Source of the DNA: Ruditapes philippinarum | Lineage: Eukaryota | Assembly (NCBI RefSeq): GCF_026571515.1 | Contig: NW_026865651.1 | Coordinates: 62,001 to 126,000, forward strand | Length of the DNA: 64,000 nt | Direction: 5' to 3' | Shown here: positions 3,501 to 40,561 of the stretch, one piece after another | Layout of the letters: each line of letters opens with the position of its first letter | Numbering within the stretch: the stretch's first letter is position 1 | The notes under the pieces: generated by a model | The model's database searches: none | Told to the model about the DNA's origin: nothing | Seen by the model: only the letters and a program-made list of their open reading frames with translations | Translations under genes and position numbers: made by a program

Positions 3501-6478
3501 CAATGTTAAATAAAATGATAACGTTATGTCAATATTTTTAAAAGAATGTCCTTTTTCTTAACACTGCTCGTTTTTTTCAGGACTTTGTATCATAATACTT
3601 CTCTTAGGTACATAATTTAGACTAATTTAGTAATAATAATAAGCTTTAATCAAGTGATTTGTATCATAGTTGGGGGATATCAGCTCAATCAGATTGCGTG
3701 TTTTCATCTATTTATAGGCTGGTGATATTTTGGTTGGTTCTATAGACTTTGGAACAACGTACTCGGGATGGGCAGTTATGTTTGCCCATGAATTTGAATC
3801 AGAGCCGACGAAAGGATTTGTGAAGACATGGCATTCGGGAAGCTCGATAATCACGGAGAAAACACCTACAGTGGTACTTATACAACCAGGCGGAAAGGAA
3901 CTAGAGGCGTTTGGTTACGATGCTGAGAATCGTTATAAAGAGCTTATAGAACAGGATGAACACGAGGGATATTACTACTTTCAGAGATTTAAAATGAAAC
4001 TTCACAAGCAATTGGGCGATGTAAGGAATAGTTCAATTATTAATGAATTGCATTTGTACAGTTTCTTGATTTTTACACATTGCTTAGTTTGATTATCCTG
4101 CTTTAACTTATTTCATTTCTGTATTATTATGTTTCTAGCATTGATCTAAATTCCTGGTTAGTAATTAATTAAATATTTTTATAATACTTGAATCAAGGAA
4201 AGGCATCGTTCACAGATCACGGTTTGATATTTCGTTTGTATGTTTTGTCAAGTGTTTTTCGCCGTTTCTCTCCTCCCCCAAAAAGTCTTTCAATGAATTT
4301 TAATCAAGCCTTATATGTCTGAAGTTTCTTGTTGATAGCACTTATTAATCAATTTGCTCCATTTCCGTTATCACTTTAAGCTTTCCACTACGATTGGTTG
4401 ACTATACCATGTTACTCCCCTGGCCATCAGTCGAACGTTCCTCTACCGTTCACGTTCTTACGAAGGTTTGAAGTAACGGCAGTTATTTCATTAAGCTACT
4501 AAAGGAACGTCTCTGTGCCGAGATTGCGTTCCATTGACGTTGTTTTCCCATGTTTATATTAAACGCAAATGTAACATATGTTTTATTTACCTTCACATTA
4601 ATATTTCATATTTTGACATTCAGAAAATCGACTTGAATATGACGTTGGCTGATGAAATGGGTCGCAAACTACCTGCAATTGATGTTTTTGCTATGGCAAT
4701 AGAATACCTTGTTGATGATATGCATGATGCAATCAAAGACAGAATGTCCGGAGTTATTGAGAAGTCTGAGGTTCATTGGGTTATCACTGTTCCGGCTATT
4801 TGGACAGACTCTGCAAAACAGTTCATGAGAAAAGCTGGTGAACAGGTTTGTTATCTTTATATTCATTGATTTAGTTTTCATTTAAAAGTTTATTGTTTTA
4901 TTTAAATAATAAAAAATATCAAAGGTATTGCTGTTGACAATTTATTAACTAAAAATGTCTCTTCAGGCTGGAATCGATGATCGCAAATTAAGTATCGCCC
5001 TTGAACCAGAAGCGGCCTCCATTTTCTGTCGCCATTTGTCAGTTGAAAAAAGAGTCGACACTACTAATGTCTGCATTGCTTCCTTCCCAGCTGGAACAAG
5101 ATACATGGTACTTGATGCTGGAGGTATATATTTTTAGACGCTAATCTTACGTTTTTCAATCTTATGTAATTTTCAGAAGTAAGAACTGTATATTAATACT
5201 TTTTAGAAAATACAGGTACTAATATGTCATTTATATATGCAATAGCACTGCTATGTATAATAAAGAAATGACGTTAAACAAAAATTTTTAAACGATTCAT
5301 TCTAAACGTAAAGATATTACGGCTTTATTTGGTTCTCCAGTTTTTAAATTTTGTTTTGCCCATAAAATTCAAAGGTAGTTTAGACATTTTGCGAACGTTT
5401 AAGTGTATTTTGTTTATCAGGTGGTACAATAGATATCACAGTCCATGAGGTCCAAGCTAATGGCGCTGTAAAAGAAATACAAGCAGCAAGCGGAGGCGGT
5501 TGGGGTGGTACTCTTGTTGACCAGGCGTTTGAAAAGTTGATCATTGATTTAGTAGGGAAAAGGGTTTATCAGGATTTCAAACAGGAAAGCCCGGATGATT
5601 GGCTAGACCTTTGGCGCGATTTTGAACTGAAGAAAAGAACAATTAAACCTGATAAGGAGACAAAGGTTGTCATGAAGATACCCGAAAGTCTTCGTGAACA
5701 GTATAAAAGTAAATTCCAAAAAACTTTTAAAGAAGCTGTTGAATCATCTTCATATGCTGAAAATATTACATTTGTTGCTGACAAGATGAAGTTTGACGCA
5801 ATCGTATTTAGAAAGCTTTTTGATGTCTCGTTGACCAAAACAATACAGCATACGGAAATATTAATGAGAGATCCAGCTGTCCGACAGATTAAGGCCATTT
5901 TAATGGTTGGAGGTTTTTCGGAGTCGCCTATGCTCCAAGACAAGGTTAAATCCTGCTTTCGTGGCATTGATGTTATCATACCTGCAGAGGCGTCCTCGTC
6001 GATATTGAGAGGGGCGCTTATCTTTGGACACAGTCCAACTTCGGTCTCTGAAAGAGTTTTAAAGTATTCTTATGGTATTGCCATGTATACAGCTTTTAGA
6101 AAAGGTGAACATCCAGAAAACCGGTATGAAATGACTGATTCAGGACCTAAGTGCAGAGACGTTTTTGACAAGCATGTTGAGAAAAACCAAATAGTTAAAG
6201 TGGGAGAGACACAAGTATCCCAAACGTACACACCGACAAGCAAAAACCAGACTTGCATTCCATTTCGTATTTTTGCTTCAGAGTTAAGAGATCCCAAATA
6301 TACCGATGTAGGTTGCAAATTCATTGGAAAACTGGAAATAGAGCTTACAGATCATGATGGAGATTTAACACGTGAAATCAATGTTAACTTCACATTCAGT
6401 GGTACAGAAATTGAGGTATCAGCAAAGGATGTCAAAACAGGAAAGTCGGAAAAAGCATCTATCAATTTTCTCGGCTAA
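507..6478 (+). CDS. HSPA12: HSPA12-like atypical Hsp70, copy 1 (580 aa, intact)
   Basis: Exons 507-509 (ATG only), 3718-4020, 4624-4845, 4967-5123, 5421-6478. All introns are GT-AG with phases 0,0,0,1; total 1743 nt, open frame. Hsp70/HSPA12 motifs: [49 protein letters not shown]. Ends in FLG with no lid or EEVD. Confidence 0.93.
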
Positions 6479-7832: not shown

Positions 7833-7833
<1 letters not shown>

Positions 7834-7873
<40 letters not shown>

Positions 7874-7911
7874 AAAAAAAAAAAAACAACTACAAGCAAT
7901 CAAACAAACAA
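7834..7911. repeat. Poly(A) tract grading into (CAAA)n
   Basis: About 39 A, a C, about 13 A, then caaa-type units. Confidence 0.9.
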
Positions 7912-10210: not shown

Positions 10211-10346
10211 TTATGGATGGAACATATTACATATTTGCAAACTTCATCAAAACATTGCAATCCGTGACTCTGTGACCCATCGTTATCACCCGTAACATAA
10301 TTTGGGCAGTGAGGAAAATTTTCGCAATCAGACGTTATTGTACAAA
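10211..10346 (-). pseudogene. Remnant last coding exon of a Cvsi-2-like gene
   Basis: Homologous to 55014-54881. After an AG acceptor it reads (V)CTITSDCENFPHCPNYVTGDNDGSQSHGLQCFDEVCKY, then ttccatccataag. It is 2 nt longer (frameshift before the homologous TAA), the last Cys is Tyr, and the downstream donor is GC instead of GT. No upstream exons were found. Confidence 0.75.
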
Positions 10347-10381
10347 CTAAATAAAACAACAGGAAGTGAATCAGTTTAGTA

Positions 10382-12810
10382 TTTTATGCCACCGCAGCAT
10401 CTGCGATGAGGTGGCATATAGCGATTAACATGTGTGTTTGTGTGTGTGTTCTATAGATTATATAGTGAACTTAAAAATTCTACTTGTGAAAAACCACAAG
10501 TCCAATTTCAACTAAACTTGGCAGGATTGATCCTTGGGTGAAGGGCTTCCAAAGTTGTTCAAAGAATTTCATTCCATGCAGAAATCTGGTTGCCATGGCA
10601 ACCAAAAGGAATTATAAGAATAAATTAAAAAAAATCTTCTTGTAAAGACCCAAAATGCCTAGAGCTTAGATATTTTGCATAAGGCATTGTCTGGTAGACC
10701 CTTACCAAGATTGTTCAAATTATAGCCCTGGGGTCAAAATATACTATCATCTATAGGTCCTCTACCAAAGTTGTTCAAATTTATCCCCTGGTGTCAAAAT
10801 TGGCCCTGCCCGGGGGCAGTGATTCTCATTATGTACACATAGTAAAAACAGAAAATAAAACAAATGTTTTCTGAATGAGAGAAAGCTACAGCTTAGATAT
10901 TTGACTTGAAATGTTGTTTGGTGGACCCGCATCAAGATTGTTTTGAATGAAATCCTTGGGTCAAAATTTTGCCTTGCCCAAGGGGATAGTGACCTACTTT
11001 CTTGTCCTGTGATGTACAGCATCAAAAAGATGTAAAGTGAACTTTGATAGCATCTGACCTAGATTTTGACAAAGTGTCTTACTGTGTTGTTGGGGTCATA
11101 TAGTAAAAACTTAAACTACCTCCATGTAAAGACCAAAAAGGCATAGGGCTTAGATATTTTGCATAAGGCATTGCCTGGTAGATCTCTACCCAGATTGTTC
11201 AAATTATAGCCCTGGGGTCAAAATCGGCCCCGCCCCAGGGGTCATGGATTTTCCTTATATGTATATAGTAAAAACTTATAGTAAAAACTTCTTCTAGCAA
11301 TTGACAAATGCTAGAGGTTAAATATTTTGCATGAAATATTGTGTAGTGAACCTCTAGCAAGATTGTTCAAATTATAGCCATGGGGTCAAATTGCCCCGGG
11401 GGTCATTGATTTTCAATATATATATAGTAAAAAATCAAACAATCTTATTGTCTGAAGGTACAAGGCTTAGAGCTTTAATATTTGTTAAATGATATCATCT
11501 ATAGGTACTCTACCAAAGTTGTTCAAATTTTCCCTCTTGTGTCAAAATTAGCCCCGCCCCGGGGGTCATAGGTTTTCCTTATATGTATATAGTAAAAACT
11601 TAAAAAATCATCTTCTATTAATTTACAAAGGCTAGAGTTAAGATATTTTGCATGAAACATTGTGTAGTGAACCTCTAGCAAGATTTTACAAATTATAGCC
11701 CTAGGGTCAAAATTGGCCCCACCCCCAGGGTCTTTGATTTTCACTATGTACATATAGTAAAAATTTAAAAAATCTTTCTGACTAAAGATACAAGGCTTAG
11801 AGCTTTAATATTTGGTATATAATATTATCTATGGGTCCTCTACTAAAGTTGTTTTAATTATGCCCCCAGTGTTAAAATTGCCCTGCCCAAGAGGCGATAG
11901 TTTTCCTTATATGTATAAAGTAAAAACTTGAAAAATCTTCTTCTCTGAATTGACAAAGGCCTGGGGGTCATTGATTTTCATTATGTACATATAGTAAAAA
12001 AATAAAATCATATTTTTGTCTGAAGGTACAAGGCATAAGGCTTTGATGTTTGCTATATAATATCATCTATATGTCCTCTACCAAAGTTGTTCAAATTTAT
12101 CCCCTGGTGTCAAAACTGGCCCTGTCCGGGGGCAGTTATTCTCATTATGTACACATAGTAAAAACAGAAAATAAAACAAATGTTTTCTGAATGAGAGAAA
12201 TATACAGCTTAGATGTTTGACTTGAAATGTTGTTTGGTGGACCTGCATCAAGATTGTTTTGAATGAAACCCTTGGGTCCATATTTTGCCTTGCCCAAGGG
12301 GATAGTGACCTACTTTCTTGTCCTTTGACGTACAGCAATGAAATTTTGACCATGTGCACAGTTTTAGTTGTAAAATTGAACGTTGATATCAGGTGACCTA
12401 GATTTTGATGATGTGACCTACTTTCTTGTCTTTTGATGTATAGCTATGAAATTTAAACCATGTGCACAGATTAAGATGTAAAGTGAACTTTGATATCATC
12501 TGACGTAGATTTTGACAAAGTGTCTTACTGTGTTTTCCTTTGATGTAGTCATGAAATTTAGGCTGTGTGAAATATGAACTTCACCACCAAATTCACTAGA
12601 CTCAAGTGCATTGATATATTCCTACTCTGATCTTTTATTGGATTAACAATAGATTTTACCACTTATCTGATAATAAGAATTAGATAGGTCAGAGATCTAT
12701 GCGTAATGACAATCTTCAATTGTAAAGAAACAAAAAAAATGTTCATACACTACTATTTAGTGTTGTATTAATGCGGTGGCATAGCATTTTTCTCAAATGC
12801 AATCTTGTTT
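10382..12810 (+). mobile_element. Non-autonomous Helentron/HINE (pearl/DINE-1-like) element with internal ~160-bp satellite-like array
   Basis: Subterminal inverted repeats TATGCCACCGCA (10385-10396) and TGCGGTGGCATA (12772-12783), partial inverted copy at 10410-10418, (TG)n tract near 10430-10449, ~160-bp tandem cores, 3' hairpin GCATTT-ttctc-AAATGC, T-rich ends. Confidence 0.75.
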
Positions 12811-13884: not shown

Positions 13885-14762
13885 CTTTTATGTGGCTCTT
13901 TTCTTTGTTGTTAGAACTTCCGTCTGTCCGTCCGTCTGCATTCAACTTGTCGGAGATCAATGAAACTTCACAGGAGTGATCAATACCATCCCTAGCTGTG
14001 CATATTGCCCACATGTTCCGTTTTGCTACACAAATGGCCGCCAGAGCTATAAATAGAAAAATGTTGTCCGGCATTCACAGGTCAAACTGCTAGTGGGATT
14101 TCAATGAAACTTAACAGAAGTTATCAGTACCATCCCTAGTTGTGCATATGGTCGGCACGTTTCATTTCGCATCACAAAATGGTCACAAAAGCTATAAATA
14201 GAAAAATCTTGTCCGGCTTTCTTAGGTCAAACTGCTACCGGGATTTCAATGAAACTTCACAGGAGTAATCAGTGCCATCCCTCGTTGTGCATAGCGCCGG
14301 CATGTTGAGCTTTACTGCACATAATGGCCACCAGAGCTTTATGTAGAAAAATAGTGTCCGGCTTTCACAGGTCAAACTGCTGGCGAGACTTCAATGAAAC
14401 TTCACAGGAGTGATCAAGTACTATCCCTAGTTGTGCATATCGCCCACACGTTTTGCATGGCTGCACAAAATGGCCACCAGAGCTATAAATAGAAAAATCT
14501 TGTCCGGCTTTCACAGATTAAACTACTGGTTGGATTTTAATGAAAATGCACAGAAGCTATCACTATCACCCCTACTTGTGCATATAGCCGGCACGTTTTG
14601 GTTCGTTGCACAAAATGGCCACTAGAGCTATGAATAGAAAAATGATGTCCGATTTTCAAAGGTCAAACTGCTGGCGGGATTTCGACCAAAAAATCACAGG
14701 AGCGATCAGGACCAAACCTTGTTTTGGGAGACATGCTTTGCGACAAAAACCTCTTCTAGTTT
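13885..14762 (+). mobile_element. HINE-like element with ~145-bp tandem repeats (about 5.5 units)
   Basis: GTCY microsatellite near 13920-13938; aatgaaacttcacaggag-type units near 13959, 14103, 14248, 14393, 14539 and 14684; ends with gggagacatg...cttctagttt. The 5' terminus is degenerate. Confidence 0.65.
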
Positions 14763-18170: not shown

Positions 18171-21100
18171 ATGGTGAGTTATTATTTTCTTTCTTCCCTT
18201 TTCTCAGCGCTAGGTCATTCTTAGAGATGCTTCTAAAATAAAATCATATGATCAGGTGATTTTTTTCAAACAGAAAACATGTTTTTTAATGAACATTTTG
18301 TCAAAAATCGGTAAATAGAAAAAAGTTGCAAAATTACTTCAAATGAAAACATGATTCTATTAGTTCAAAAACTATGATATCTAAATTTAAAGTTGAGATA
18401 TATTCCGTACTAGTATTTAAAAAAACAACATTTTATGGGGAAGGTAGGGGACAGAAGATATCTATATTTGATTATTGAACTTTCCAGATTGTTTTTGACC
18501 TCGGTAGACATGAACGTTTATATCGCGCGACATACCATCTTATCACAATTTTGTTATTGCGAGTTTCTACTTGTTCTTAACATTCAAAGAAAGAACTGTA
18601 ATATTACCATAACTTCTACGATATTACAACATTTTAGAGTAATATTAAAGACCCGTTATGATTTAAAACTATACCCTAAAAGCTTTCCTATAATTATCCC
18701 AAAACTTTGAATTCATGTTACCCTGCTAAAGCTTACAAATTGTTATTCACACTCACAGGTTATTTACATGTACCTGAACCGCCTTTTTCTTCTGTTATTG
18801 TTTGGCAATTAGTACAGTTGTAGTCAATAAGCATTTGTTATAGAAGTCAAAATAATAGTTAATTCGCATTTGGCTACTATTATGACAAATGATTCCACAT
18901 TCAGTGCTACATTCTTAAGGAAATAAGATTTTTAATGTCTCGAAAACCGTTACATAAACGTTTTAAAACTCATGATAGCATTTCAGAAGATTAATAATTC
19001 ATTTGTTTCGGACTGAGGTACTATGTGCCTGTTTGTCTGTTTCTGTATTAGGTTTCACATGGATATGTGATCCTAACACATTTGTAGTTTATAACATGAA
19101 AATAAGTCAGCATCACAATTTTAGTAAAATAATAAAACTACTTATTTCGATCGGTAAGATATTGTTCATGAAATATTGAATATACTATGCGTTATAACAT
19201 ACTTTTAAATATAACATTTTATTGTATTTTGTGTGATATTATAAAGGGTCTGTTTACTAAATAAAATGTTAATGAAAAGCTGATTTTTGAAACACTCTTG
19301 TATTGTATTCTTTTCGGGTTCTTAAATGTGAACAATTAAATATCGATCAAATTACCTATGCGTTCAATTTGTTTAAAAGTACTCTCAACGGGCAAATACA
19401 AAGGTTTTCAACAGATATATACAACTTCGAGTAGAACTGACTTGTAGCCAAACAAAGACACTGGCATTAATACTATAATGTGTTTTGAAACCAAAAACTA
19501 TGTTTATAAATACTATTTTTGTTTCACTGACAAATCACGTTACTACATATTGATTATCTAAAAGAATTTTTTTCTATGCCATTTTTTTCCAACTTATTTG
19601 TGCGGGATATTACTTACTGTATCGAATTCAAAAATATAAATCAGATTGAAAAATCTTATGCAGAAAAAGAAACAATAACTATTTTTGCATCATTTTGGAG
19701 TTGGTATGTAATTTTTCAAACTTAATGTTTGTATAGGTCATGACTCGACAAAGTATAGTAGGCATTCACTTCACTTTCTATAGACTGATATATCTCATAT
19801 AGTCAAAATGCAGTGATTATGAACAATAACTATCACTTGCATAATTTTTGGGTTATTGTCCTTGTTAATTGCCATGCTTAATTTTGCCCCAGAGGATAGT
19901 TATCACATGTATCCAAAGTTTTGAAACACGGAAAACTTAACCGAAAGTGTGACGACACTGGTGTGAGTAGGATAGTTCTCCCTATGTTAAAACTATAATA
20001 ACCGAGCTAAAAATCATTTTCGAAGAAACGTTATTCTTGTACGGGTGATTTAGGAGTATATACATGTATTTTCATATAAGTTATTTCACTTTGTATCTTT
20101 TTGGCCGAAGGTCATTTAAATACATGTTCAATTCCTGTAAAAAACAGATAAGAAGATTTTTTTCTTGGTCAATTTAGAATAACAAACTGAAATTTTGGAA
20201 TCTCATTGGCTATTTTCAAATAAAATGTAAAGGATAGTTCATACCATTCCATTATAAAACAAGTACAGATGTTGCTGCAATGCAGCAATTAAGAAGCTCC
20301 GCGCGCAAAAAAAAAGCAGCACGCATCCAGGTGTGCCAAAATATTTCAAGAAATCAATACATCTAAAAACATTCAATACCCTAGTTAAATTGTACATGTT
20401 ATGTACAGTACAGTTTAGAACTGATTTGGCAGTATTTTATAACCATTACTAACACAGAAAGGGCTTATTTTGCATTTGTTGACAACTTTTTGGAATTTTC
20501 TTGGATTGTATGTGCAAATTGGAGTATGTAAATTACTTTATTTGTTCACCTCACACTATTTTACTTTTAAATACATTTCCAAATATTTCATAAAAATTAG
20601 CATGAATCTTGAGGCGTGCTGCTTTAAGTACTATTGTACATTATTCCAGATGTTTTGTAAATCATTTAAAGTTGTATAGTTATAGATCTACGTCTCGTAT
20701 GCACTGCCCATGATAAATAGAGGGGCCAGATATTAAATAAAAAAAAACAACAACTTTTACTAATGCCTACCTGGTACAGAAAGTAAATTAATTGATAATT
20801 GATACATGATGATACACCTCTTTCATAAAAAATAATCAGAGTTAATTGATTTAAATTATGATTATTTCTGGGGTGTGTTTCATAAAGTATCGTGAAAACA
20901 TAAGACTAAAATTAGGACTGGAATAAGATTGCACTTAGGAGTGTTTCAAGAATAACTCCTAAGTCTTGCACTTAGGAATAGTCCTAACTTTACTCTTAAG
21001 ACACAATCTTGCTAATGGAGATAAAAAATACTCACTTGTGGAAATGAAATAAGAAATCGTCATGTGAAATAGTGAAGAATGATAGAAAAAAAAAGAATGG

Positions 21101-24100
21101 TGTATAATTGACATTTATACATTATTATTTCTTATTTTTACCTTACTTAATATCATTTATGTTATAATGTAAGGGGACTAATAATGTTTTGATTTTCTTT
21201 TAAAAATATTCTAAAATTGCATAAGGCAGACATGTTTCTTGAAAATATATTCCATATTTTAATAAAACAAAAAAATATCTTCTTAATATTTATGAAATAA
21301 AATAAATTTTGAGTGAATTGTTGTAGGATGAAGCCTTTTTCGAGTTCAAATGTGCAGGAATGTAATAACTAAAGTTGATAGGCCTTAAGTAATTTATTAC
21401 AAAACATTTGAATGATTAAACGTGCATTATTTTACTGTTACGGCTGAAAAAAGATCTATTTCCATGAAAATAGTCAATAAAAACATTTGATCTTTATTAA
21501 GCGCGGAAGTTGTTTTTTCTGACGTCATTTGGTTTATTGACGTCATATCTGACTTCATATTTTATATGCCATGCATATATCGTGTAATAATGCACTTGAC
21601 TGCCTTATCCGTTAATAGGTGTGTTTTGATTTTATGTTAATTAAAAAAATTACTGAATCTTGAACATAGAACATTCGCCAAACTGCCATTTTGATCAGTC
21701 ACAATGTCAGTATGTACAAATACTGGTACAGATTTTCTTTCACTAATGAAATCTATCATTACACTGGTTAGCAAACATGAACATGTTTTTTTTCATAAAA
21801 GTTATATTCACCTTAAAAGTATTTATTTAGGGTTGTATTTACATAACCAAAACTTTTCATAATTCATATTAAATGAGTGTAATAATAACAGTGACAACAA
21901 TTTATTAAATATTACAGGTACTAGATCTAATAACTTTTTCTTCACTTTTTAAGTATATAATTATACATCAGTCAATGAAACAAGAGCTGCAATGATTTTT
22001 AAGCACGTATTTTTGTATTTACAACTTAATACAAAAGTTAGGAGTGCCCTAAGGCACCCATAGAAAAAGTCCTAAGTTTAGTCTTAAAATTGTACTTAAG
22101 ATTTTTCTTGAAACACTGTTTTATCACAGTTTTGCATTTACGACTAAAATAGGTCTTTATGAAACGCATCCCTGATCTAATTTGATTAACTGAATTTGAT
22201 AAATCATAAGAATGTAGTTCTTGGGATGATGTACCTAAATAAATTATCAGTTTCCAACATATAATGACAAATTAATATCTAACTGTCATTAAATTTAAAA
22301 GGGTGTCCTTTTCCTTGACATTGCTTATCTCGTTGGCTTTGTGTCATAATAATGGGCTAAGGTGGTACGTAATACTATGAAGCTTAAATAAGTGATTTGT
22401 ATCATTTGGTTGTGGATATCATTTTAATCAACTTGCGTGTTTTCATCTGTTTATAGGCTGGTAATATTGTAGTTGGTTCTATAGACTTTGGAACAACGTA
22501 CTCAGGATGGGCAGTTATGTTTTCTCATGAATTTGAATCAGAGCCGACGAAAGGATTCGTGAAGCAATGGCATTCGGGAAGCTCAATAATTACAGAAAAA
22601 ACACCTACAGTGGTTCTTATAAAACCTGGCGGAAATGAACTGGAAGCATTTGGTTACGATGCTGAGAACCGTTATAAAGAGCTAATAGAACAGGGAGAAC
22701 ACGAGGGATACTACTACTTTCAGAGATTTAAAATGAAACTTCATAAGGAAATGGGTGATGTAAGGAATATTTTGATTTTGAACGAGTTCCACATGTGCAG
22801 TTATTTGGTTGTAACACATTGCTTGGTTTGATAATCCTGCTTTTACTTATTTCATTTCTGATTATTCACTTAAATTGATTTAAATATAATAAAATGATCA
22901 ACAAAGGAAAGCATCGATCATGGTTCACGATAAGATGTTTCGTTTGTATGTTTTGTCAAGTGTTCTTGCCATTTCTTTTATTATTTTTCTCTTATATCTT
23001 CTCGTCTCAATAAAATGTCCTCCCCTGTAACTTCATCAGCCCTTAAACCCCTGAAGTTTCTTTTTGATTGTTATAATTAATCAATTCGCTCCTTCTTCTT
23101 TATCACCCCACCACTACGATTGGTTGCCTATACCTTATTACTTGGCATTCCTGGGCATCGTTCGAATGTTCCACTATCGTTTACTTTCTAACGAAAGTTT
23201 GAAGTAACGGTGGTGATTCAATTAGCTGCTAAAGATGCGTATTACCCTGTGCGACAGGAAATTGTAGGGGTTGCCTTCCGTTGAATTTGTTTCCAAAATT
23301 GATATTAACCACAAATATAACATATGTTTAAATTTCCTTTACATTAATTTTTCATATTTTCCATTCAGAAAATCGACTTGAACATGACGTTGAAGGATGA
23401 AATGGGACAGACTCTACCTGCAATTAATGTTTTTGCTATGGCAATAGAATACCTTGTAAATGATATGCATGATGTAACCAAAGACAGAATATCCGGAGTA
23501 ATTCAGAAGTCTGAGGTTCATTGGGTTATCACTGTTCCGGCAATTTGGACAGACTCAGCAAAACAGTTTATGAGAAAAGCTGGCGAACAGGTTAGTTATG
23601 TTTATATTCATTGATTTGTTCCATTTAAAACTTTATTGTTTAGTGTTAATTTCGATATTACTGCTGACAATTTCATCAACTTACAATGTTTCTTCAGGCT
23701 GGAATAGATGAACGCAAATTAAGTATCGCCCTTGAACCAGAAGCGGCCTCCATTTTCTGTCGCCATTTGCCAGTTGAAAAAAGAATCGACACTTCAAATG
23801 TATGCATTGCTTCCTTCCCAGCTGGAACGAAATACATGGTGCTAGATGCTGGAGGTATATATTTATCGATCTGATAACATGAATACATGGGGATATTCTC
23901 AGTCCATTAAACATGTAGATAAGGAATCTTATATCTTTTGTTATCTACTGTTTTGCTATTCTTTGAGAGTAAAATAATGGAAAAAGAAGCTGGACTTCTA
24001 CAGTGCTTTTCGTTTGGTTCGGCTGTATACATTTTGAAAGTCACTCTAAAATGAGTTTTAGTTTCGGACTTGTTTTCAGTTGCGCGGTCTAATTTAATCC

Positions 24101-26704
24101 CAAAATATCATGTTCGTCCTGATTGTGACGAATATAATAAACACTAATCATTTATGTATTTATCATTTCACTTTTCAAATAACATGGTAACTATTCATAG
24201 ATGTTTTCAGATAATAAATTTTCAATGACATATGGGGAATTACCCCATTAATTTGTGATTTTCTATGACCTATAAATACTTGTATATTGCGTTAATGTGA
24301 TATTAAATTTCCACAGTAAAAGATTACATACTGATACCTTTCATCAAATACATGGCATTTAGAAACACATAGCACTGATATGTACAATACAGTTATTAAA
24401 AAACAAAACACTTTAAATGGTCATTATTATCAATGAACTGCAAATACCTTGGGGTAAAATTCGGTCATTTAATGCTTATGTCTCCGTGTAGGAACATTAT
24501 CCTATTTTTTGCTTTTAGTAAGTTTTGTACCCCTTCGTAGTAAACCTAACACTAATTTTGAAGATAGATATGTATGAATTGATTTTTATTAATAGATCTA
24601 GAGTTGTTGGACCTATGCCCGGCCCAAAATCGTGGTAAATGTTCCGAAAAAGCAACAATTGATAATGTATTTATTGAAAGTAAATGCTTCTGTCCAATAG
24701 TTTTATATCCAATTATTCGTTAAGAACGAAAATGACCTTTATAGTATCTGCGGTAAATGAGTGCGGTTAAGTTCTAACTAAACGAATGCTCGGTGCAACG
24801 TTGGCTATATATTTTGACTTTGTGTTGTTAAAAATGTCTTTTGTTAATTTTGTAAAAGTCGAAACCGAATACAAATGGACAAGATTTTAACATTTTTTTA
24901 ATTTTTTTTATTATTAATAATCTAAATCCGTCTATGCCTGTGCTTATCAAGAAGGCAAAATGTGGCTATTTTATCTGCTAAACATACAGTTACTCCCCTT
25001 TTGTCTGGTCTGATGCGATAGGGTTACGTGACCATATTGGAGGTTAAATTACCTAATAAAAGTTTGATAAAGCTAAAGTATATAGCTTTTTAGTGTTATG
25101 CTTTTATTTCGTAAGATATTCGTTAAATCATGATGTTTGCACCGAGCACTGGTCTACGTTGAGCGTTGATCCAACCACTCTACGGATTTCAAATATTGTA
25201 CAGTGACACCTTATGACCAAGCATAAAATTACAATAAGGAAATTAAAATAGAACTGAACTGTAAATAAATACTGGGCTATTTCTTAACCAAAACGTTTCT
25301 TTAGACAAACAAAAATTATTGTAGACTCTCAAAATTTTGAGTAAATCAAACTATATTAAGTTTTTTTAAAGTGATACAAAATTGTACTTGAAGAAGATTA
25401 TGATGGTAATTCAGGCCTTATCACTGTCAGATTTTGCTTCTATAAAAAGATATTTATAATAAATACACAGGACATAATTCAATCTATTGACAAAATAAAA
25501 GAAAAGGTTACATATCTACATAAACTATTCATTTTAAGGTATAGATATAACGACCCCCTTTGGTTCCTCGGTTTAACTTTGAGGTCGATAAAAAAATAAG
25601 GTAGATAAGTCTAAAATGCGAATGATTAAGTATATTTTATTTTACAGGTGGTACAATAGATATTACAGTCCATGAAGTCCAACCTAACGGTTCTGTTAAA
25701 GAAATAGAAGCTGCAAGCGGTGGTGGCTGGGGCGGAACTCTTGTAGACCAGGCGTTTGAAGAGCTGATCATTGACATAGTAGGAAAAAAGGTTTATCAAG
25801 ATTTCAAAAGGAAAAGCCAGAAGATTGGTTGGACCTTTGGCGCGATTTCGAAATGAAGAAGAGAACAATCCAGCCTAAAAAAGAGACAAAAGTTGTCATG
25901 AGAATACCCGAATCTCTGCGTAAAAAGTATAAACGACAAAGCACAAAAACCTTCACAAATGCTGTTGAAACATCTTCATATGCTGACAATATTACATCTG
26001 TGGCTGACAAGATAAAGTTTGACCCATTTTTATTTAAAAAACTATTTGATGGTTCGTTGACGAAAACAATACAACATACAGAAAGTCTTATCAAAAAGCT
26101 AACTGTTCAACAGATCAAAGCCATTTTAATGGTGGGAGGTTTTTCTGAGTCCCCTATGCTTCAAGAGAGGGTTAAATCCTGCTTTCGTGGCATTGATGTC
26201 ATCATACCTGCAGAAGCGTCCTCCTCGATATTGAGAGGAGCGCTTATTTTTGGACATAGTCCAACTTCGATCTCTGAGAGAGTTCTGAGGTATACATATG
26301 GTATAAGTATCTATACTCCATTCATAACAGGCAAACATCCAGAAAGCAAGCGTGAAAATACTGATTCTGGACCTCAGTGCAGGGACGTGTTTAACAAGCA
26401 TGTTGAGAGAAATCAAAATGTCAAAGTAGGAGAGCCACAGGTTGTAAAATCTTACTCACCTGTCAACAAAAATCAGAAAATCATTCCTTTTTCCATATAT
26501 GCGTCTGACATGAAAGATCCCGAATATACAGATGTTGGTTGCAAATTCGTCGGGGAAATGCAAATAGAGCTCCAAGACCGCAAAATAGATGTGTCGCGTA
26601 AAGTTGAAGTAAGCCTTACATTTAGTGGTACAGAAATTGAGGTGAAAGCGAAAGATGTAAAAACAGGGAAATATGAAAAAGCATCGATTAATTTCCTGGG
26701 GTAA
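18171..26704 (+). pseudogene. HSPA12: HSPA12-like copy 2, frameshifted in exon 5 (pseudogene, null allele or sequence error)
   Basis: Exons 18171-18173, 22457-22759, 23369-23590, 23698-23854, 25648-26704. Exon 5 is 1057 nt versus 1058 in copies 1 and 3: one nt is missing at the A-run 25806-25809, giving TGA at 25854-25856. The rest of the reading frame and all splice sites look intact. Gene identity is secure; pseudogene status is not. Confidence 0.75.
20871..22171. mobile_element. Non-autonomous PIF/Harbinger-like DNA transposon in intron 1 of HSPA12 copy 2
   Basis: 17-bp TIRs (GGGTGTGTTTCATAAAG / CTTTATGAAACGCATCC, 15/17), 3-bp CTG target duplication, subterminal ttagga/tcctaa repeats. The empty site with a single CTG is visible in copy 1 (~3382) and copy 3 (~34796). 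Confidence 0.8.
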
Positions 26705-30424: not shown

Positions 30425-30511
30425 ATCATAATTTAGTTCCGTTTCCTAAAATCGCGCGATGGATTTAACTTCCTTGTAGGCCATTTTGAAAACAGCAGCG
30501 AAATGGTGAGT
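30425..30511 (+). promoter_or_regulatory. Extra HSPA12 promoter/5'UTR/ATG-only exon module (orphan, or alternative first exon of copy 3)
   Basis: Same block as at 433-515, 18097-18179 and 32376-32458 (ttagttccgtttcctaaaatcgcgc...gccattttgaaaacagcagcgaaATG|gtgagt). It is followed by about 1.2 kb of diverged intron-1-like sequence but no gene body of its own. Confidence 0.75.
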
Positions 30512-32257: not shown

Positions 32258-32312
<55 letters not shown>

Positions 32313-32318: not shown

Positions 32319-32449
32319 CTGAAATACAGAGATTGTCACGTATTATTACAGCAAAATAGTTGAATGTGTTATATTATAATTTAGTTCCGTTTCCTAAAAT
32401 CGCGCAATGCATTTAACTTCCTTGTAGCCATTTTGAAAACAGCAGCGAA

Positions 32450-35400
32450 ATGGTGAGTAATTATTGTTTTACTTCTTCCTTTTTCTCAGCGCTAGGTCAT
32501 TCTTAGAGATGCTTCAGAAAAAATCATACGATCAGGTGATTTTTCCAAACAGAAACCATGTTTTTTAATGAACATTTTGTCAAAAATCGGTTAATAGAAA
32601 AAAGTTGCAAATTACTTCAAACGAAAACATGCTTCTATAAGTTCAAAAACTATGATATCTTACAATAGTTTAAAGTTGAGATGTATTCCGTACTAGTATT
32701 TATAAAAAAACAACAACACATTATATGGGGAAGGTAGGGGACAGGAGATTTTTATATTAGATTATTGAACTTTCCAGATTGTTTTTGACCTTGATAGATA
32801 TGAACGTTTATATCGCGCGACATACCATCTTATCACAATTTTGTTATTGCGAGTTTCGACTTGTTAACATTCCTTCAGATACAGGAAAGGATGAACTGTA
32901 ATATTACGCTACCTTCCACGATATTACAACATTGAAGTGTAACATTAAAGACACATTTTTTTTACTATACCTCAAATACAGGAAATAAGATTTTTAAAGT
33001 TTCTAAAACCGTTACATAAACGTTAAAACTCATAAGAGCATTTCAGAAGATTAATAATTCATTTGTTTCAGTCTGAGGCATTATGTGCCTGTTTGTCTGT
33101 TTCTATATTAGTTTTCACATGGATATGTGATCAGTTTATAACATGAAAATCAGTCAGCATCACAATTTTAGTAAAAATAATAAAACTACTTATTTCGATC
33201 ATTAACATATGGTCCATGAAATATTGAATATAATATGCGTTATAACATACTTTAAATAGAACATTTTATTGTATTTTGTGTGATATTATAAAGGGTCTGT
33301 TTACTAAATAAAATGTTTATGAAAAGTTAATTTTTGAAACACTCTCGTATTGTATTCTTATCGGGTTCTTATGTGAACAATTAAATATCATGGGTTCAAT
33401 TTGTTTAAAGGTATTCCAAGTGTGTTTTATCGCTGAGATAAGTTCTGTTTACACAAAACATTTTACACTTCGTTTCGATCTCATTACATTTACTAGTGTA
33501 CTGTTTATTTTACATCAGAACTCAGTATAATTTACATTGAGTGTAAAAATTAGTTTAACGAAATATCGAGTACAAAATAAATTGTTCTATTTGTATGTTT
33601 TCACACAATTAATGTGGTGGGTGGAGTAATGAACCCTTTAAGGTCTATCTATAGTAATCCTAAATGTATTTGTTTGCGAAGCCAAGGCCGTTTTACCTTT
33701 TTAACAGTTTTTTTATATTTTTCTTTTTCATCATATCTGTTTGTATTGAATTAAAGCTATAAGTAGATTGTTGATTTAACACTATTCTTTATACTTTAAT
33801 TTCCATTTAAATTATTTCATATGTGATTCTTTTAATAATACTGTCATTCTTTTGCACATGATGAAAGTCAAACTTGAAATACCTAAATCAATACTAGAAA
33901 ATTAAAGTTGTCCTATTTTGAAGAGACATCAATATCAATATACTTACAATTTAATTTCTTTGTTTACATTTTTTCTTAGCTACAATAAATTACTTTGTCA
34001 TTGTTGTACAAGCATTGCTAACAGTTCTATATGTTTCAAAAACTAAGAAATAACAATTGCAATTTGTATTTGGGCAGGTATTTTTATTAAAGATACTTGT
34101 ATCATAGTTTGGGAAGTTTCTGTTGAAAATGTGTCAGAGTTAAATTGTATACATATACATGCACAGTGCGTTAACTGGAGTGCAGGTATTAGTTATTGGT
34201 TGGCTCATTTTTGCTGGGGTTTACTTATTGTGACGGCAGAGAATGGGAAAGCAATAGAAATATCATATTCAGATGCTCATTCATTGGTAACATTTTACTG
34301 GGGTTTCATATTGTGACAGCAGGGAACGTGTTTTTATGTTTGACCATGATACAAAAGAGAAAGAACATCAAAACACTCGGCAATCTGATTAATACTCGGG
34401 GCTACACCCCCCTCGTACAAATCAGATAGCCTCGTGTTTCGATGCTCTTTCTATTACATATTGTTTCAAATTCAATAATGTCTAGAGTTTATCTTAATTA
34501 TAATACGGTGTATTAGTCTATGGAACTTTATGTAAGTTTAAGTTTTGAAAATTGAGTACCGCTAAAGCCTGTGCGAAGGGTACAGATTCAATCAAACCGA
34601 GTCTGCAATTTTCATGTAATTTTGTTGTGATTTTGACATTACATAACTTTAATCTAAGGAACTATATATAACTTTAATCTATGCAAAATTAAAAATCTTT
34701 ATAGCGATTTCAAAGTCATATATAGTAATTGATACATGATGATTTATCTCTATCATTCGGCATAAAATAAATCAGAGACTAAATAATTATTATTCCTGTT
34801 CTAATTGGATTCATTGAATTTGGTCATGCTTTTTATTTCTTTCATAACACTTGAATGTTAAGATTACAGTTTAATGTACTTCATATAAATTATAAATTTG
34901 CAATAAAAATGGTAAATAAAATTATGCCGTAATGTCAATATTTTTAAAAGAATGTCATTTTTCTTGACACTGCTAGTTTTTTTCAGGGCTTTGTATATTA
35001 ATAATTCTCTTAGGTACATAAATAATAAGCTTTAATCAAATGATTTGGATATCAGCTCAATCAGATTGCATGTTTTCATCTATTTATAGGCTGGTAATAT
35101 TTTGGTTGGTTCTATAGACTTTGGAACAACGTATTCAGGATGGGCAGTTATGTTTTCCCATGAATTTGAATCAGAGCCGACGAAAGGATTTGTTAAGCAA
35201 TGGCATTCGGGCTCGATAATCACAGAAAAAACACCTACAGTGGTACTTATACAACCAGGCGGCAATAAACTAGAGAACTTTGGTTACGATGCTGAGAACC
35301 GTTATAAAGAGCTAATAGAACAGGGAGAACACGAGGGATACTACTACTTTCAGAGATTTAAAATGAAACTTCATAAACAATTGGGCGATGTAAGGAATAT

Positions 35401-38400
35401 CTTAATTTTGAATGAGTTCCACGTGACTGTGCAATTACTTGATTGTTACACATTGCTTAGTTTGATTATCCTGCTTTAACTTATTTCATTTCTTTATTAT
35501 TTTTTCTTGCATTGATCTAAACTCCCGATTAGTAATTAATTTGTAATGATTGCTAACAGCATCGTTAACGGTTGATATGATGTTTCGTTTGAATGTATTT
35601 CTGCCGTTTCTAAATCCACCTTTTATTTCATGCTTTTGTGTGGATAACTGATTTATCATTGAAAATTATATTTGATAATTTTACAGTGAAAATTATCATT
35701 TTATAATTTCACACTTTTGAAAGAAGAGACTACTTTTAAAAGATTTATCTTTTTCGGTACATCACTTTTATTTAAATTTATGGTTACAATGCCATCCTAT
35801 CTAGAGCTGTTTAGAAGCAAAGCAAAGCTAAAATTTATAAATAATTTATATTTCAAAAGTAATCAAAACGATAAAACTTACTTCAATAAATTCCATTTAC
35901 CGATTAACAAATTCGTCTCTACTTTTTGATTTCCTTCTTAACAGTCTGATAATTACACTTCTTTCATAATGCAAAACTGTTCTTGATGACATTTGGGCAT
36001 ATTTAACAATCCTACAAGCAATAACTGTAAAATCTGTTTAAAAACAATGGCGGTCATCTGCCCGAATAATTACCAAGCGTTCGTAAGACAGCTTTTCAAA
36101 AGATCCCATGTTTCCAAATTCCTAGTCGCTTCTTGAATGTGTACGCATATGGCAACAGTTACAATCTACGAATAAGTATTCTTTCTTATGATAGATGTAA
36201 CATTATCAAAGCCAAATGAAATCCCTTAGAATCAAGCACATTTTATTCTTTCCTCGTTTGAAATAAACAACTTTTAAAAATGGCCGTCGAATGATAAGGA
36301 CTATTACATCTTTCTGCATTATAAGTGTATAAAAGAAAATTAAGTTCGACATGATGTAACTTTCCCATCTTTTTTAAATGTTTGTTTTATTGTTTAAAAA
36401 AAGGATCTATCATACTTTTTTGTTTAAAACAATATCATCGCTATTTAATGATTAATGTTGATTTTCGATCTTATTTTTTAGCTCAAGACTTCTTGAGCTA
36501 TTTATGAGAAATTCGTCCGAAATTGAGGCTTCCAGTGGAAAATACAGATTATAATTAGTTAATATTGAGGAAATTTCATTTAAACTTGTTTGAAGCATAA
36601 AATAAAAAAGAAAATTTGTTTGCTTGTGGTATAAGATGTAATTTTCTTTCATCTCGTGGGAAAACTGTTTTTAAAGCTCACTCGATGAAATAAAATTTCA
36701 ATTTATGCACAAACAAACAAATATACACTATATATTCGTTCACTTCAATAAAAAGTCTTTCCATGTATTTTTATCACACTTTTTTCCTCTGAAGGCTCTT
36801 GTTAAAAGTAGTAATAATTAATCAATTCGATTCTTCTCCTTTATCACCTTTCAACTACGATTGTTTTTTTAACCCTCCTTGGTATCGGTCCAATGTTTCA
36901 CAATAGTCTCTTCCGAACGTTTGAAATAACGGCAAGATATTCAATTAGCTGCTATTACCTTTTGCAACAGGAAATTGTCAGGATTGCGTTCCGTTGATGT
37001 TGTTTTCCCATATTGATATTAACTGTTGTAGTTTGATCATAAATATTACATATAATGGAATTTTTCTTTTCAATCATTTTTCATATTTTGGCATTCAGAA
37101 AATCGACTTGAATATGACGTTGGCGGATGAAATGGGACGCAAACTACCTGCAATTGATGTTTTTGCTATGGCAATAGAATACCTTGTTGATGATATGCAT
37201 AAGGTTATCAAAGACAGAATGTCCGGAGGTATTGAGAAGTCTGAGGTTCATTGGGTTATCACTGTTCCGGCTATTTGGACAGATTCAGCAAAACAGTTCA
37301 TGAGAAAAGCTGGTGAACAGGTTCGTTATCATTATATTTTAGATATTTTTCATTTAAAAGTTTATTGTTTAGTTTTAATTTTGATAAAAATTATCAAAAG
37401 TACTGCTGTGGACCATTTCAATAAAATCTAACAATGTCTCTTCAGGCTGGAATTGATGATCGCAAATTAAGTATCGCACTTGAACCAGAAGCGGCCTCCA
37501 TTTTCTGTCGCCATTTGTCAGTTGAAAAAAGGATCGACACTACTAATGTCTGCATTGCTTCCTTCCCAGCTGAAACGAGATACATGGTGCTAGATGCTGG
37601 AGGTATATATTTATAAATCTCTCAGATAAGGTTAATAATGGGGAATATTCTCAATTCATAAAAGCATATTGTAGTGCTCCCGTGAGCGCCACGAAATATC
37701 ACGTAATAATGATGAATCGATCGGACGTACAGACGGACATATGACTGATTACAATATTATAGAACTAAGTCTGGACATTTCGGAAATAATCACTTAAGGA
37801 TATTATCAGTTATTTTTAAACAAAATAATTTATTTTAATAAATTCCCTTAACAGTAAATAATGTCAGGATTGCAACTTTAAAAAATCAGATGATGCAATA
37901 AAATAATGGCACAACGAATTGCAAAAGAGTCAAGAGTCTGACAGAACTTACACATTCAACAGTCATTTAAATATTACGGAGTCGTCAAAGCTTCCCACTT
38001 TTGAGTTAATATATAAAATAATAAAATGCAATTTTTGTCATCAAATACAAAAATCTATCGTTAAAATCTCTCAATTATTTCCTTGAATGATATTTACTTA
38101 TCTTAAATTATATGTCCAAAAATAAAATCAGTACAAAAAACTTCACTATTTACCCGGAGCCAAATAAAATCGAATTACCCGAAAATCTGAATGGGGACCC
38201 TCGTATACTTGCCAAAAAATCTGGCAGTCCAGCACAAAAAATGCTGTCAAATAAATGTAAAGGATTCCCATACAAATAAATCTAAAGGATTCCCATACAA
38301 GTAAGGGAAATCCGTCATAAAATATCACGGGTTCATGAAAAACCGTCATAAAATTATGGGGAACAAAATTTTTTTAGTGAATGTTTTAGACAAAGATTTC

Positions 38401-40561
38401 ATAAATAACTTCAATGAAATTATGTTATTTATTACATTAAGGTAGTGAACATCTAATAAGCATTATTAGAGAACGGTCAAATTGACAACATAGGACAGAT
38501 GCATGCCTTAAATGACTCCTTTACGCAAAATTTAAACATAATTTACCGTATGGTTTATGAGTTTTGATGTATGGATTTGATTTACACGTGCACACAACAA
38601 CATGTTTACTAATTTAGTTATGACCCTGACCAATAAATGACATTGACCGTCAAATGATTGAATTCTGCTTATATTTCCTTAACTTTGTCATATATTTATG
38701 GAAATTATTCATAACTGGACAAAACAAGAAGTGTGACTAGGACAGACCTATTTTACAATAAAATAGAATAAAAAGCTTAACTGTTTTTATTTAATTTCCT
38801 TTTAAAGATTTGTCTAAACCGTTTATGTGTTTGGTTTTAGAAAACGTGAAAAAAGTCGAGCGTTGTCCCTGCCCTGCGGTGGCTCTTTTATGCAATGATA
38901 ATTATTCACATATTTCTTGAGTAGAAAAAGTTAATGAGGAAAAGTAGAGCTAAATAAATAATAATAAAAATCGGGCCGGGTTAACCAGAAATCAGATTGA
39001 CTTGGGGACGGATTGACTTAATTGGCGCCGGATTGATTTGAGGCCGGGTCGACTTTGGGCCGGGTTGACTGGTACCGCATTTATATATGCAATAGCACTG
39101 TTTTGTACAATAAAAAACAAAAAATACGTTAATAATTTCATAAATGAACAATACAATAAGTACAATAAGGACATAATATACCAGTTCTCCCATGTTAGAA
39201 CATTATCCAGTTTAGTGAAGTTACTGATTATCGAGTCATGTATCAATTGACTTTTAACTTTAAACCAAGTCTTTTTAAATGTTATACAGTGACAAGTTAT
39301 GGCCAAAACGCAATTGAATAAGGAATTACGTTTTTATTTCTGACACTTAGTCTTAATTACGGACGGTTTCTTAACCATAACGATTTTATATTATTACAAT
39401 ATTTTATTGCAGAATCTCAAAATTTTGAGTGTATTAAGTGTAAAAATATGTTCAAGTGATTCAAAATATAATTGAAAAAGATACCGATTTTGATATTTAA
39501 CAGGTGGAACAATAGATATAACAGTCCATGAAGTCCAACCTAATGGCGCTGTTAAAGAAATACAAGCTGCAAGTGGAGGCGGTTGGGGTGGTACTCTAGT
39601 AGACCAAGCTTTTGAAAAGCTGATCATTGATTTAGTAGGAAAAAGTGTTTATCAAGATTTCAAACAGGAAAGCCCGGATGACTGGCTAGATCTTTGGCGC
39701 GATTTTGAACTTAAGAAAAGAACAATCAAACCTGATAAGGAGACAAAAGTTGTCATGAAGATACCCGAAACTCTTCGTGAGCAGTATAAACGTAAATTCC
39801 GACAAACCTTTAAAGAGGCCGTTGAATCATCTTCATATGCTGAAAATATTACATTTGTTGCTGACAAGATGAAGTTTGACGCAATCGTATTTAAAAAGCT
39901 TTTTGATGTTTCTTTGGCCAAAACAATACAACATATGGAAAACCTTATCAGAGATCCAGCCGTCCGACACATTAAAGCCATTTTAATGGTTGGAGGTTTT
40001 TCTGAGTCTCCTTTGCTTCAAGAGAGGGTTAAATCGTGTTTTCCTGGCATTGATGTCATTATACCTGCAGAAGCGTCCTCGTCGATATTGAGAGGAGCGC
40101 TTATTTTTGGACACAGTCCAACTTCGATCTCAGAAAGAGTTCTGAGGTATACATATGGGGTGCGTGTATCAAGGCCATTTATAGAAGGCGTAGATCCAGA
40201 AAGCAAGCGTGTAATGACTGATTCGGGACCTCATTGCACGGGCACATTTGACAAGCATGTTGAGAGAAATAAAAAAGTAAAAGTAGGAGAGCCACAGATA
40301 ACACAAATTTACACACCAAGGAACAGGGATCAAAAAGCCTTAACATTTCCCGTATATGCGTCAGAGATGAAAGATCCCAAATATACCGATGTGGGATGCA
40401 AATTCATCGGGGATATGAGGATAGAGCTGCCATACCATGATGGAGACTTGTCGCGTGAAGTTGAAGTTAGCCTTACATTTAGTGGTACAGAAATTGAGGT
40501 GACAACACATGATGTAAAATCTGGGAAATTAGAAAAAGCATCCATTGATTTCCTCGGGTAA
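32450..40561 (+). CDS. HSPA12: HSPA12-like atypical Hsp70, copy 3 (579 aa, intact)
   Basis: Exons 32450-32452 (ATG; alternative ATG exon at 30503-30505), 35090-35389, 37099-37320, 37446-37602, 39504-40561. GT-AG introns, 1740 nt open frame, same motifs as copy 1, one-codon deletion in exon 2 (HSGSII). Confidence 0.92.
35620..36720. mobile_element. About 1.1-kb insertion in intron 2 of HSPA12 copy 3
   Basis: Intron 2 is 1709 bp versus 603 and 609 in the paralogs. The extra sequence is bounded by ttttatttcat...atgaaataaaa. Class unknown and ends approximate. Confidence 0.45.
38441..38600. mobile_element. Truncated relative of the 59357-60152 element in intron 4 of HSPA12 copy 3
   Basis: ttaa|ggtagt start and shared blocks ttgacaacat.ggacag, atgccttaaatg, gcaaaatttaaaca.aatttaccgt.tggtt.atgagtt. 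No right TIR found; the right boundary is approximate. Confidence 0.6.
38972..39076. repeat. Array of ~15-bp GC-rich repeats (ggccgggttgact-like), probably a transposon end
   Basis: About six degenerate copies in intron 4 of copy 3; paralog-homologous intron sequence resumes immediately after. Confidence 0.55.

What the first reader, a model, noticed from the sequence alone, without database searches (positions are those of the whole stretch)
6040..40561. HSPA12 paralogs have a near-constant ATPase domain but a hypervariable substrate-binding domain, like a receptor repertoire
Seen: copies 1 and 3 differ at only 5 of 126 residues in exons 3-4 but at about 57 of the last ~145 residues. Copies 2 and 3 differ at about 48 of those residues (hand counts). 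Changes cluster in patches between invariant framework: after YxYG (IAMYTA / ISIYTP / VRVSRP), KCRDV / QCRDV / HCTGT, and [20 protein letters not shown] / VVKSYSPVNKNQKIIPFSIY / ITQIYTPRNRDQKALTFPVY. Known: this region corresponds to the Hsp70 beta-sandwich substrate-binding domain, HSPA12 lacks the lid and EEVD, and HSPA12 is expanded in bivalves. Inference: these may be ATPase-switched ligand sensors or binders with diversifying specificity (pathogen or toxin proteins) rather than general chaperones.
Basis: partly seen in the sequence, partly recalled or inferred. Interest (0 to 1): 0.72.

Follow-up and report, generated by a model that had tools for sequence, protein, structure and literature searches.

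The report
Clam HSPA12 with fast-changing binding surface
Three tandem clam genes encode lidless Hsp70-type ATPases whose fastest-changing residues map to the rim of the predicted client-binding cleft; the same residues stay fixed in a conserved sister lineage, so the copies likely grip different partners, although positive selection is not shown and part of the contrast comes from sequence exchange between copies.

Summary
The counts are exact (5/126, 57/145, 48/145), and the variable tail folds as an Hsp70 substrate-binding beta-sandwich without a lid. The headline copy 1 vs 3 contrast is largely a mosaic: silent divergence jumps too (dS 0.28 to 1.04), with a breakpoint near the domain linker. 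A real effect remains. Across 31 disjoint paralog pairs dS is equal but dN/dS rises from 0.27 to 0.38. About a fifth of tail sites evolve near neutrally (3% in the ATPase half). They concentrate on the cleft rim (dN/dS about 0.85), while pocket walls (0.28) and the opposite sheet (0.30) stay constrained. The fastest 15 sites are unusually conserved in another lidless lineage (34/45 identical across clam genera), so the surface is functional. dN/dS above 1 does not survive corrections (p about 0.1). Copy 2 is frameshifted. Best reading: ATPase-switched adaptors with rapidly re-specified clients. A pathogen-receptor role is untested.

The parts
507..509 (+). Copy 1 predicted start codon at the end of exon 1, followed by a GT donor
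   Evidence: Same ATG-donor context upstream of all six related copies; annotated proteins begin M-A-G; not confirmed by RNA
3718..4020 (+). Copy 1 exon 2 (ATPase lobe I, phosphate-1 motif)
4624..4845 (+). Copy 1 exon 3
4967..5123 (+). Copy 1 exon 4
5421..6478 (+). Copy 1 last exon (ATPase lobe II, linker, SBD-beta, stop); intact frame
   Evidence: none of the long RNA contig pieces listed in four runs matched it closely
5987..6049 (+). Approximate recombination or conversion breakpoint in copy 1 (codons 417-437)
   Evidence: max-chi on silent sites against two C2655 copies, permutation p=0.0005; estimates against copies 3 and 2 fall earlier, codons 363 and 219
6065..6475 (+). Copy 1 SBD-beta domain; variable patches 6077-6094, 6149-6163, 6215-6274
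18171..18173 (+). Copy 2 predicted start codon (exon 1 end)
22457..22759 (+). Copy 2 exon 2
23369..23590 (+). Copy 2 exon 3
23698..23854 (+). Copy 2 exon 4
25648..26704 (+). Copy 2 last exon, one base short; SBD-beta at 26291-26701, patches 26303-26320, 26375-26389, 26441-26500
25806..25809 (+). A-run holding the 1-nt frameshift of copy 2 (recent pseudogene or assembly error; not resolved)
32450..32452 (+). Copy 3 predicted start codon (exon 1 end)
35090..35389 (+). Copy 3 exon 2
   Evidence: joint 35389-37099 in contigs of three runs
37099..37320 (+). Copy 3 exon 3
37446..37602 (+). Copy 3 exon 4
39504..40561 (+). Copy 3 last exon; intact; encodes the end of P0001 (579 aa, annotated HSPA12A-like)
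40148..40558 (+). Copy 3 SBD-beta domain (residues 443-579); patches 40160-40177, 40232-40246, 40298-40357

Best explanation
These are tandem bivalve HSPA12 genes encoding a conserved Hsp70 ATPase joined to a predicted lidless substrate-binding beta-sandwich, and they likely act as nucleotide-switched adaptors whose client-binding surface is re-specified from copy to copy. Shown: the ATPase motifs are conserved; the predicted pocket walls and one sheet are constrained; about 15-25 positions on the cleft rim (equivalents of DnaK E402, T403, S427, A429, E430, A435, T437) and on neighbouring strands (T409, H439, N458) change at roughly the neutral rate in the expanded clades, yet are conserved in another lidless clade; sequence exchange has joined ATPase parts and binding domains of different ages (copy 1; clade B). 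Inferred: ADP/ATP controls client binding as reported for human HSPA12A; each copy would grip a different client or client variant; episodic selection for new specificities plus conversion would drive the turnover. The clients are unknown.
For: Tail folds as Hsp70 SBD-beta, Z 14-16, rmsd 1.7-1.9 A over 110-113 residues for the best rows; register Y443=DnaK L397 from the 1dg4 range and 493-512=DnaK 422-441 from hhalign. Site sets taken from PMC8604352 section 8: pocket walls dN/dS 0.28, rim 0.85 (0.67 with free silent rate); opposite sheet 0.30. Rim beats random tail sites (p=1e-4) and variable tail sites (p=0.008). 31 disjoint pairs: dS 0.274 vs 0.288 (p=1.0), dN higher in the tail in 22 of 31 (p=0.0025), rim pN/pS 1.07. 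Cross-validated top-10 sites: 1.10 in the tail vs 0.45 in the ATPase half. Eight held-out pairs: top-15 pN 0.183 vs tail 0.068. Six pairs from other animals: 0.229 vs 0.104. Conserved clade H across clam genera: top-15 identical at 34 of 45 vs 90 of 180 other variable sites (p=0.002); copy 3 vs a Mercenaria relative 2 of 15 (p=0.003). L007 vs P0007: 1 difference in 165 ATPase residues, 14 in the tail. Human HSPA12A binds the SorLA tail through its SBD in an ADP/ATP-dependent way (PMC6345817, passages).
Against: dN/dS above 1 is not robust. The pooled test falls from 2dlnL 29 to 4.1 once silent-rate variation and double-nucleotide changes are allowed, and 4 of 40 null simulations exceeded that. 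Cross-validated sites give 0.72-0.86 with a free silent rate. In the focal clade the M8 vs M8a signal (p=0.024) vanishes without copy 1 (p=0.41) and M1a vs M2a is not significant. Only 1 of 13 clades has a cross-validated interval above 1. Rim enrichment is not significant against the most variable tail sites (p=0.064). The family-wide rise is modest (0.27 to 0.38). Three of six copies in this clade are broken. No coordinates were available, so solvent exposure and an open cleft were not measured. No binding or ATPase data.
Confidence: 0.55

Rival explanations
1. Relaxed constraint: redundant young copies have lost a specific client, so the old binding surface drifts neutrally while the ATPase and the fold are kept for dosage or a generic role.
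For: The best estimates sit at or just below 1; the null model fits with about 22% of tail sites at dN/dS 1; broken copies are common (15 of 109 last exons had stops or split matches; 3 of 6 in the focal clade).
Against: Relaxation is confined to one surface while the ATPase half of the focal clade stays at dN/dS 0.17 and the opposite sheet at 0.30; M8 beats M8a at p<0.05 in 4 of 13 clades for the tail and 0 of 13 for the ATPase half (uncorrected for silent-rate variation); loss of the lid alone cannot explain it, as lidless clade H conserves the same sites.
Confidence: 0.3
2. Gene-conversion mosaic only: the 5' part is homogenised and the tails are simply older, with ordinary purifying selection throughout.
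For: True of copy 1: tail dS 1.0-1.9 against 0.28-0.41 in the ATPase part, breakpoint p=0.0005. 26 of 143 within-clade pairs show a silent-site breakpoint. Tail pS also exceeds ATPase pS in the other-animal pairs (0.343 vs 0.236).
Against: For copy 2 vs 3 and three more pairs pS is flat while pN rises 2-3 fold; family-wide dS is equal between domains (13 of 31 pairs, 7 of 13 clades higher in the tail).
Confidence: 0.07
3. The fast surface is not a client cleft but an interface for a co-chaperone, a lid-substituting partner or self-association that co-evolves with its partner.
For: Several top sites (477, 510, 533) lie on strand faces outside the literature cleft set; that this face lies under the lid in DnaK is recalled and inferred from strand alternation, not computed. 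The post hoc set for this face gives dN/dS 0.90.
Against: The a priori rim set is itself fast and the pocket walls are conserved; the human SBD binds a client tail (PMC6345817, passages).
Confidence: 0.08

Closest known systems
Bivalve HSPA12A/B-like expansion (P0001 = XP_060571724.1; 89 members in Pacific oyster, PMC11268181)
   Same: Same family, tandem duplication, large copy number (at least 116 last-exon matches here). PMC11268181 (passages) reports whole-gene Ka/Ks above 1 for 14 of 30 tandem pairs.
   Different: The passages seen give no domain- or site-level analysis, no mapping to the cleft and no chimeras. Here no pair has last-exon ATPase dN/dS above 1, and one pair exceeds 1 in the tail at very low dS.
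Human HSPA12A adaptor for SorLA (PMC6345817)
   Same: Same architecture; SBD binds a specific client in an ADP/ATP-dependent way, the model for the proposed mechanism.
   Different: Conserved two-gene system with a self client; the clam copies change their rim residues rapidly.
Canonical Hsp70/DnaK and the specialist HscA
   Same: ATPase fold and SBD-beta fold; arch and pocket residues tune specificity in DnaK and HscA (PMC8215388, passages).
   Different: No helical lid, no EEVD, an insertion of about 20-25 residues in loop 1,2, and variable rim residues between paralogs.
Highly variable receptor families (plant hvNLRs, MHC) and conversion-resistant divergence peaks (opsins)
   Same: Constant ATPase or scaffold with a variable binding surface; local escape from homogenisation (PMC3924837, passages; PMC8226289 seen only as a search listing; MHC recalled).
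   Different: No robust dN/dS above 1, no signalling domain and no known non-self ligand here.

Membership tests
HSPA12 (atypical Hsp70) | Hsp70-type ATPase domain with conserved nucleotide motifs | tested here: met
   Model residues 3-433 match Hsp70 NBDs at Z 30-32; DFGT, FKM, EPE, GGGT-D and VGG motifs conserved among homologues; Pfam HSP70 55.6 bits over cut-off 20.6
HSPA12 (atypical Hsp70) | Closest relatives are annotated HSPA12A/B-like | tested here: met
HSPA12 (atypical Hsp70) | No alpha-helical lid and no EEVD | tested here: met
   Residue 579 aligns to DnaK 505-506, the end of SBD-beta; the protein ends F-L-G; lid absence in HSPA12 stated in PMC13580251 (passage)
HSPA12 (atypical Hsp70) | Nucleotide-dependent client binding | not testable with these tools
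   reported for human HSPA12A only (PMC6345817)
Canonical Hsp70 chaperone | SBD-beta sandwich with hydrophobic central pocket | tested here: met
   pocket-wall equivalents are V/I, Y, L/I/M, V/I, V in five copies; whether the cleft is open was not measured
Canonical Hsp70 chaperone | [quoted passage not shown] | tested here: not met
Hypervariable receptor repertoire (NLR/MHC-like) | Variable residues concentrated at the binding surface, framework conserved | tested here: met
   by sequence mapping onto DnaK rather than by coordinates
Hypervariable receptor repertoire (NLR/MHC-like) | dN/dS above 1 at binding sites | tested here: inconclusive
   significant in simple models, p about 0.1 after corrections
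Hypervariable receptor repertoire (NLR/MHC-like) | Repertoire differs between individuals | tested here: inconclusive
   Contig C2655 carries three different copies; P0004 and RNA contig loose ends at 6076 and 6213 show further tails; alleles and paralogs cannot be told apart; copy 3's tail was nearly invariant in four runs chosen for holding it
Hypervariable receptor repertoire (NLR/MHC-like) | Attached signalling domain | tested here: not met
   Pfam finds only HSP70 in P0001 and P0122; the model is fully accounted for by NBD plus SBD-beta
Hypervariable receptor repertoire (NLR/MHC-like) | Binds non-self ligands | not testable with these tools
   no data

The most novel reading that the evidence does not exclude
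The expanded bivalve HSPA12 clades are an intracellular receptor repertoire: an Hsp70 ATPase switch coupled to a lidless peptide cleft whose rim is driven by an arms race with pathogen or toxin proteins, with binding domains shuffled onto ATPase motors at the linker, while clade H keeps a fixed host client.
Probability: 0.18. Interest if true: 0.85.

Novelty: new variant of a known kind. Interest (0 to 1): 0.52.

Why it matters
PMC13580251 (passage) says the function of HSPA12 and the reason for its expansion in bivalves are unknown. This analysis separates a conserved-surface clade from fast-surface clades and names 15 residues (P0001 numbering 448, 449, 451, 452, 464, 477, 495, 498, 500, 501, 506, 508, 510, 528, 533) that can be swapped in binding assays. 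If the copies bind different clients, the expansion is a set of specific adaptors rather than extra general chaperones. If the clients are microbial, it would be an undescribed kind of invertebrate intracellular recognition.

Tried and rejected
PAML, HyPhy and GENECONV are not installed, so I wrote GY94-type codon models with branch lengths fixed up to a scale. A whole-domain dN/dS above 1 was rejected. A single shared dN/dS above 1 at cross-validated or a priori sites was rejected. Linker-targeted domain shuffling is only suggestive: 11 of 26 significant breakpoints fall at codons 414-437, but from two clades and non-independent pairs. Preferential homogenisation of the ATPase part is not family-wide. 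RNA contigs did not cover copy 2's frameshift well enough to test it, and none of the long pieces listed matched copy 1 closely; these holes prove nothing. The metagenome scan returned no close clam relatives (best full-length match 41%), so no allele-level test was possible. phmmer of the last exon against PDB sequences found nothing. Whether C2655 is an allelic haplotype or a duplicate was not resolved (flanks 83-96% identical). No complex prediction, atlas search or representative search was run. Look-ups of earlier findings by words, sequence and genome were empty; one search gave one unrelated note.
Full report
Gene models. The window holds three five-exon HSPA12 genes on the + strand. 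Copies 1 and 3 have intact frames. Copy 2 lacks one base in an A-run at 25806-25809; this may be a recent pseudogene or an assembly error. Copy 3 equals P0001, annotated as HSPA12A-like of Ruditapes philippinarum, and its introns 2-4 are spliced out in contigs of public runs that are RNA by record or by guess. A second contig, C2655, is colinear and carries three more copies: one intact, one frameshifted in the tail, one with a stop in exon 2.

Observation. The ATPase part is near-constant only for some pairs: copy 1 vs 3 differs at 30 of 441 residues, copy 2 vs 3 at 60 of 440.

Copy 1 is a mosaic. Against copy 3, dS rises from 0.275 in the ATPase part to 1.035 in the tail, and dN/dS only from 0.13 to 0.24. 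Silent divergence rises for all four pairs with copy 1 (p 2e-6 to 3e-13), with a best breakpoint at codons 417-437 against the C2655 copies. So the headline contrast mostly reflects an old tail on a recently exchanged ATPase part. For 5 of the 6 pairs without copy 1, silent divergence is flat while replacements rise 1.7- to 3.3-fold; copy 2 vs 3 has pS 0.276 vs 0.313 and pN 0.070 vs 0.194.

Structure. The AlphaFold model of P0001 (pLDDT 92) matches ATP-state DnaK over residues 5-579 to 2-506 (Z 30.5, rmsd 4.1 A, 461 aligned). The tail alone (pLDDT 93.5) matches Hsp70 SBD-beta, Z 14-16, well above unrelated folds at Z 5.7 or less. There is no lid. Register: Y443 = DnaK L397, and 493-512 = 422-441; hhalign misplaced strand 1, so that part rests on the structural range and the invariant glycine. 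DnaK site residues were taken from PMC8604352 section 8 and its figure legends. No coordinates were available to me.

Family-wide data. The genome has at least 116 last-exon matches. I fetched 110 of 116, left out one frameshifted C2655 copy and dropped 15 with stops or split matches, keeping 94. Thirteen clades (59 sequences) were chosen by eye from the tree. Only the last exon was analysed, so some kept copies may be pseudogenes or alternate haplotypes. In 31 disjoint closest pairs mean dS is 0.274 (ATPase half) vs 0.288 (tail), dN is higher in the tail in 22 of 31 (p=0.0025), and dN/dS is 0.27 vs 0.38.

Where the change falls. Pooled dN/dS is 0.28 for the five pocket-wall sites, 0.85 for the eight a priori rim sites, 0.30 for the outer face of the opposite sheet, and 0.90 for a post hoc set on the rim-side sheet. 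The rim set exceeds random tail sites (p=1e-4) and variable tail sites (p=0.008) but not the most variable ones (p=0.064). Fastest sites are 506 (A435), 508 (T437), 500 (A429, arch), 452, 510 (H439), 533, 498 (S427) and 477 (T409). The ranking generalises: eight held-out pairs give top-15 pN 0.183 vs 0.068, and six disjoint pairs among 38 of 54 metagenome loci from other animals give 0.229 vs 0.104, with silent divergence also higher in their tails.

Positive selection is not shown. M8 beats M8a at p<0.05 in 4 of 13 clades for the tail and 0 of 13 for the ATPase half. A pooled mixture gives 2dlnL 29 for the tail and 4 for the ATPase half. With double-nucleotide changes at the jointly best rate it is 19. 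With silent-rate variation as well it is 4.1, and 4 of 40 null simulations were higher. Cross-validated top-10 sites give 1.10 with a shared silent rate and 0.86 with a free one, against 0.45-0.51 in the ATPase half. Under the null, about 22% of tail sites sit at dN/dS 1 against 3% in the ATPase half. Clades differ (p=0.004): 1.82 in clade D, 0.37 in clade C.

Control against simple loss of constraint. In clade H, which also lacks the lid, the top-15 sites are more conserved than other variable tail sites across Dreissena, Mactra and Mya (34 of 45 vs 90 of 180, p=0.002), although the ATPase half is only about 50% identical. Copy 3 shares 2 of 15 with a Mercenaria relative and 2 of 15 with P0004, whose ATPase half is 123 of 131 identical. 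Clades F and H took part in the ranking, H with little weight; the outside proteins did not. Beyond these clams the clade H match fades (0-7 of 15), and orthology there is uncertain. The surface is therefore a functional interface in at least one lineage.

Diversity between animals. RNA contigs run off copy 1 at 6076, 6213 and 6234, at the variable patches; the last is copy 3, the other two are tails absent from the six assembled copies. P0007 differs from L007 at 1 of 165 ATPase residues and 14 tail residues. These could be alleles, unassembled paralogs or conversion products.

Mechanism. Inferred by analogy with human HSPA12A (PMC6345817, passages): ADP favours and ATP releases binding of a client at the SBD. 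Conserved clades would keep one client; expanded clades would change rim residues and exchange domains, giving new preferences. Neutral drift of a disused surface remains a serious rival.

Literature. Ten searches listed no domain- or site-level selection study of bivalve HSPA12. Seen: passages of PMC11268181, PMC6345817, PMC13580251, PMC8215388, PMC10939072, PMC3924837; passages and section 8 of PMC8604352; abstract and discussion of PMC12692333; PMC8226289 as a listing only. No supplements were read. I recall scallop and hard-clam Hsp70 papers that the searches did not list as readable and that may report selected sites; these and unread supplements could pre-empt part of the claim.

Verdict. 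Real observation, known family, partly an exchange artefact, with a reproducible fast surface at the predicted cleft rim and a conserved-clade control. Receptor-like selection and microbial ligands are open.

Noticed in passing
window 25860-26120 (copy 2, residues 300-385): Copy 2 has a second divergent block in ATPase lobe II: 29 of 86 residues differ from copy 3. This is near the subdomain that GrpE-type exchange factors open in DnaK (PMC8215388 passage; position inferred).
   Followed up: partly
window 30503-30505: An extra copy of the exon-1 start context lies upstream of copy 3's own, within a partial duplicate of the upstream region.
   Followed up: no
G000:C2655 (L031-L037): Colinear, diverged version of this locus with three different HSPA12 copies plus tail fragments; alternate haplotype or segmental duplicate.
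   Followed up: partly
L010-L017 (clade B): ATPase and tail histories disagree in both directions, with breakpoints mostly at codons 414-430.
   Followed up: partly
window 33759-35080 and its match near 2246-3100: A repeated element in intron 1 draws very high contig depth in RNA runs.
   Followed up: no
window 52207-52440, 61710-62048 (+) and 54847-56009 (-): Small cysteine-rich exons: two look Kazal-like by eye (recalled motif; Pfam found nothing), one has a signal-peptide-like start and a weak sub-threshold Nodulin_late hit.
   Followed up: partly
window 11137-12547 and 13957-14714: Tandem satellites with periods near 165, 108 and 145 bases between copies 1 and 2.
   Followed up: no
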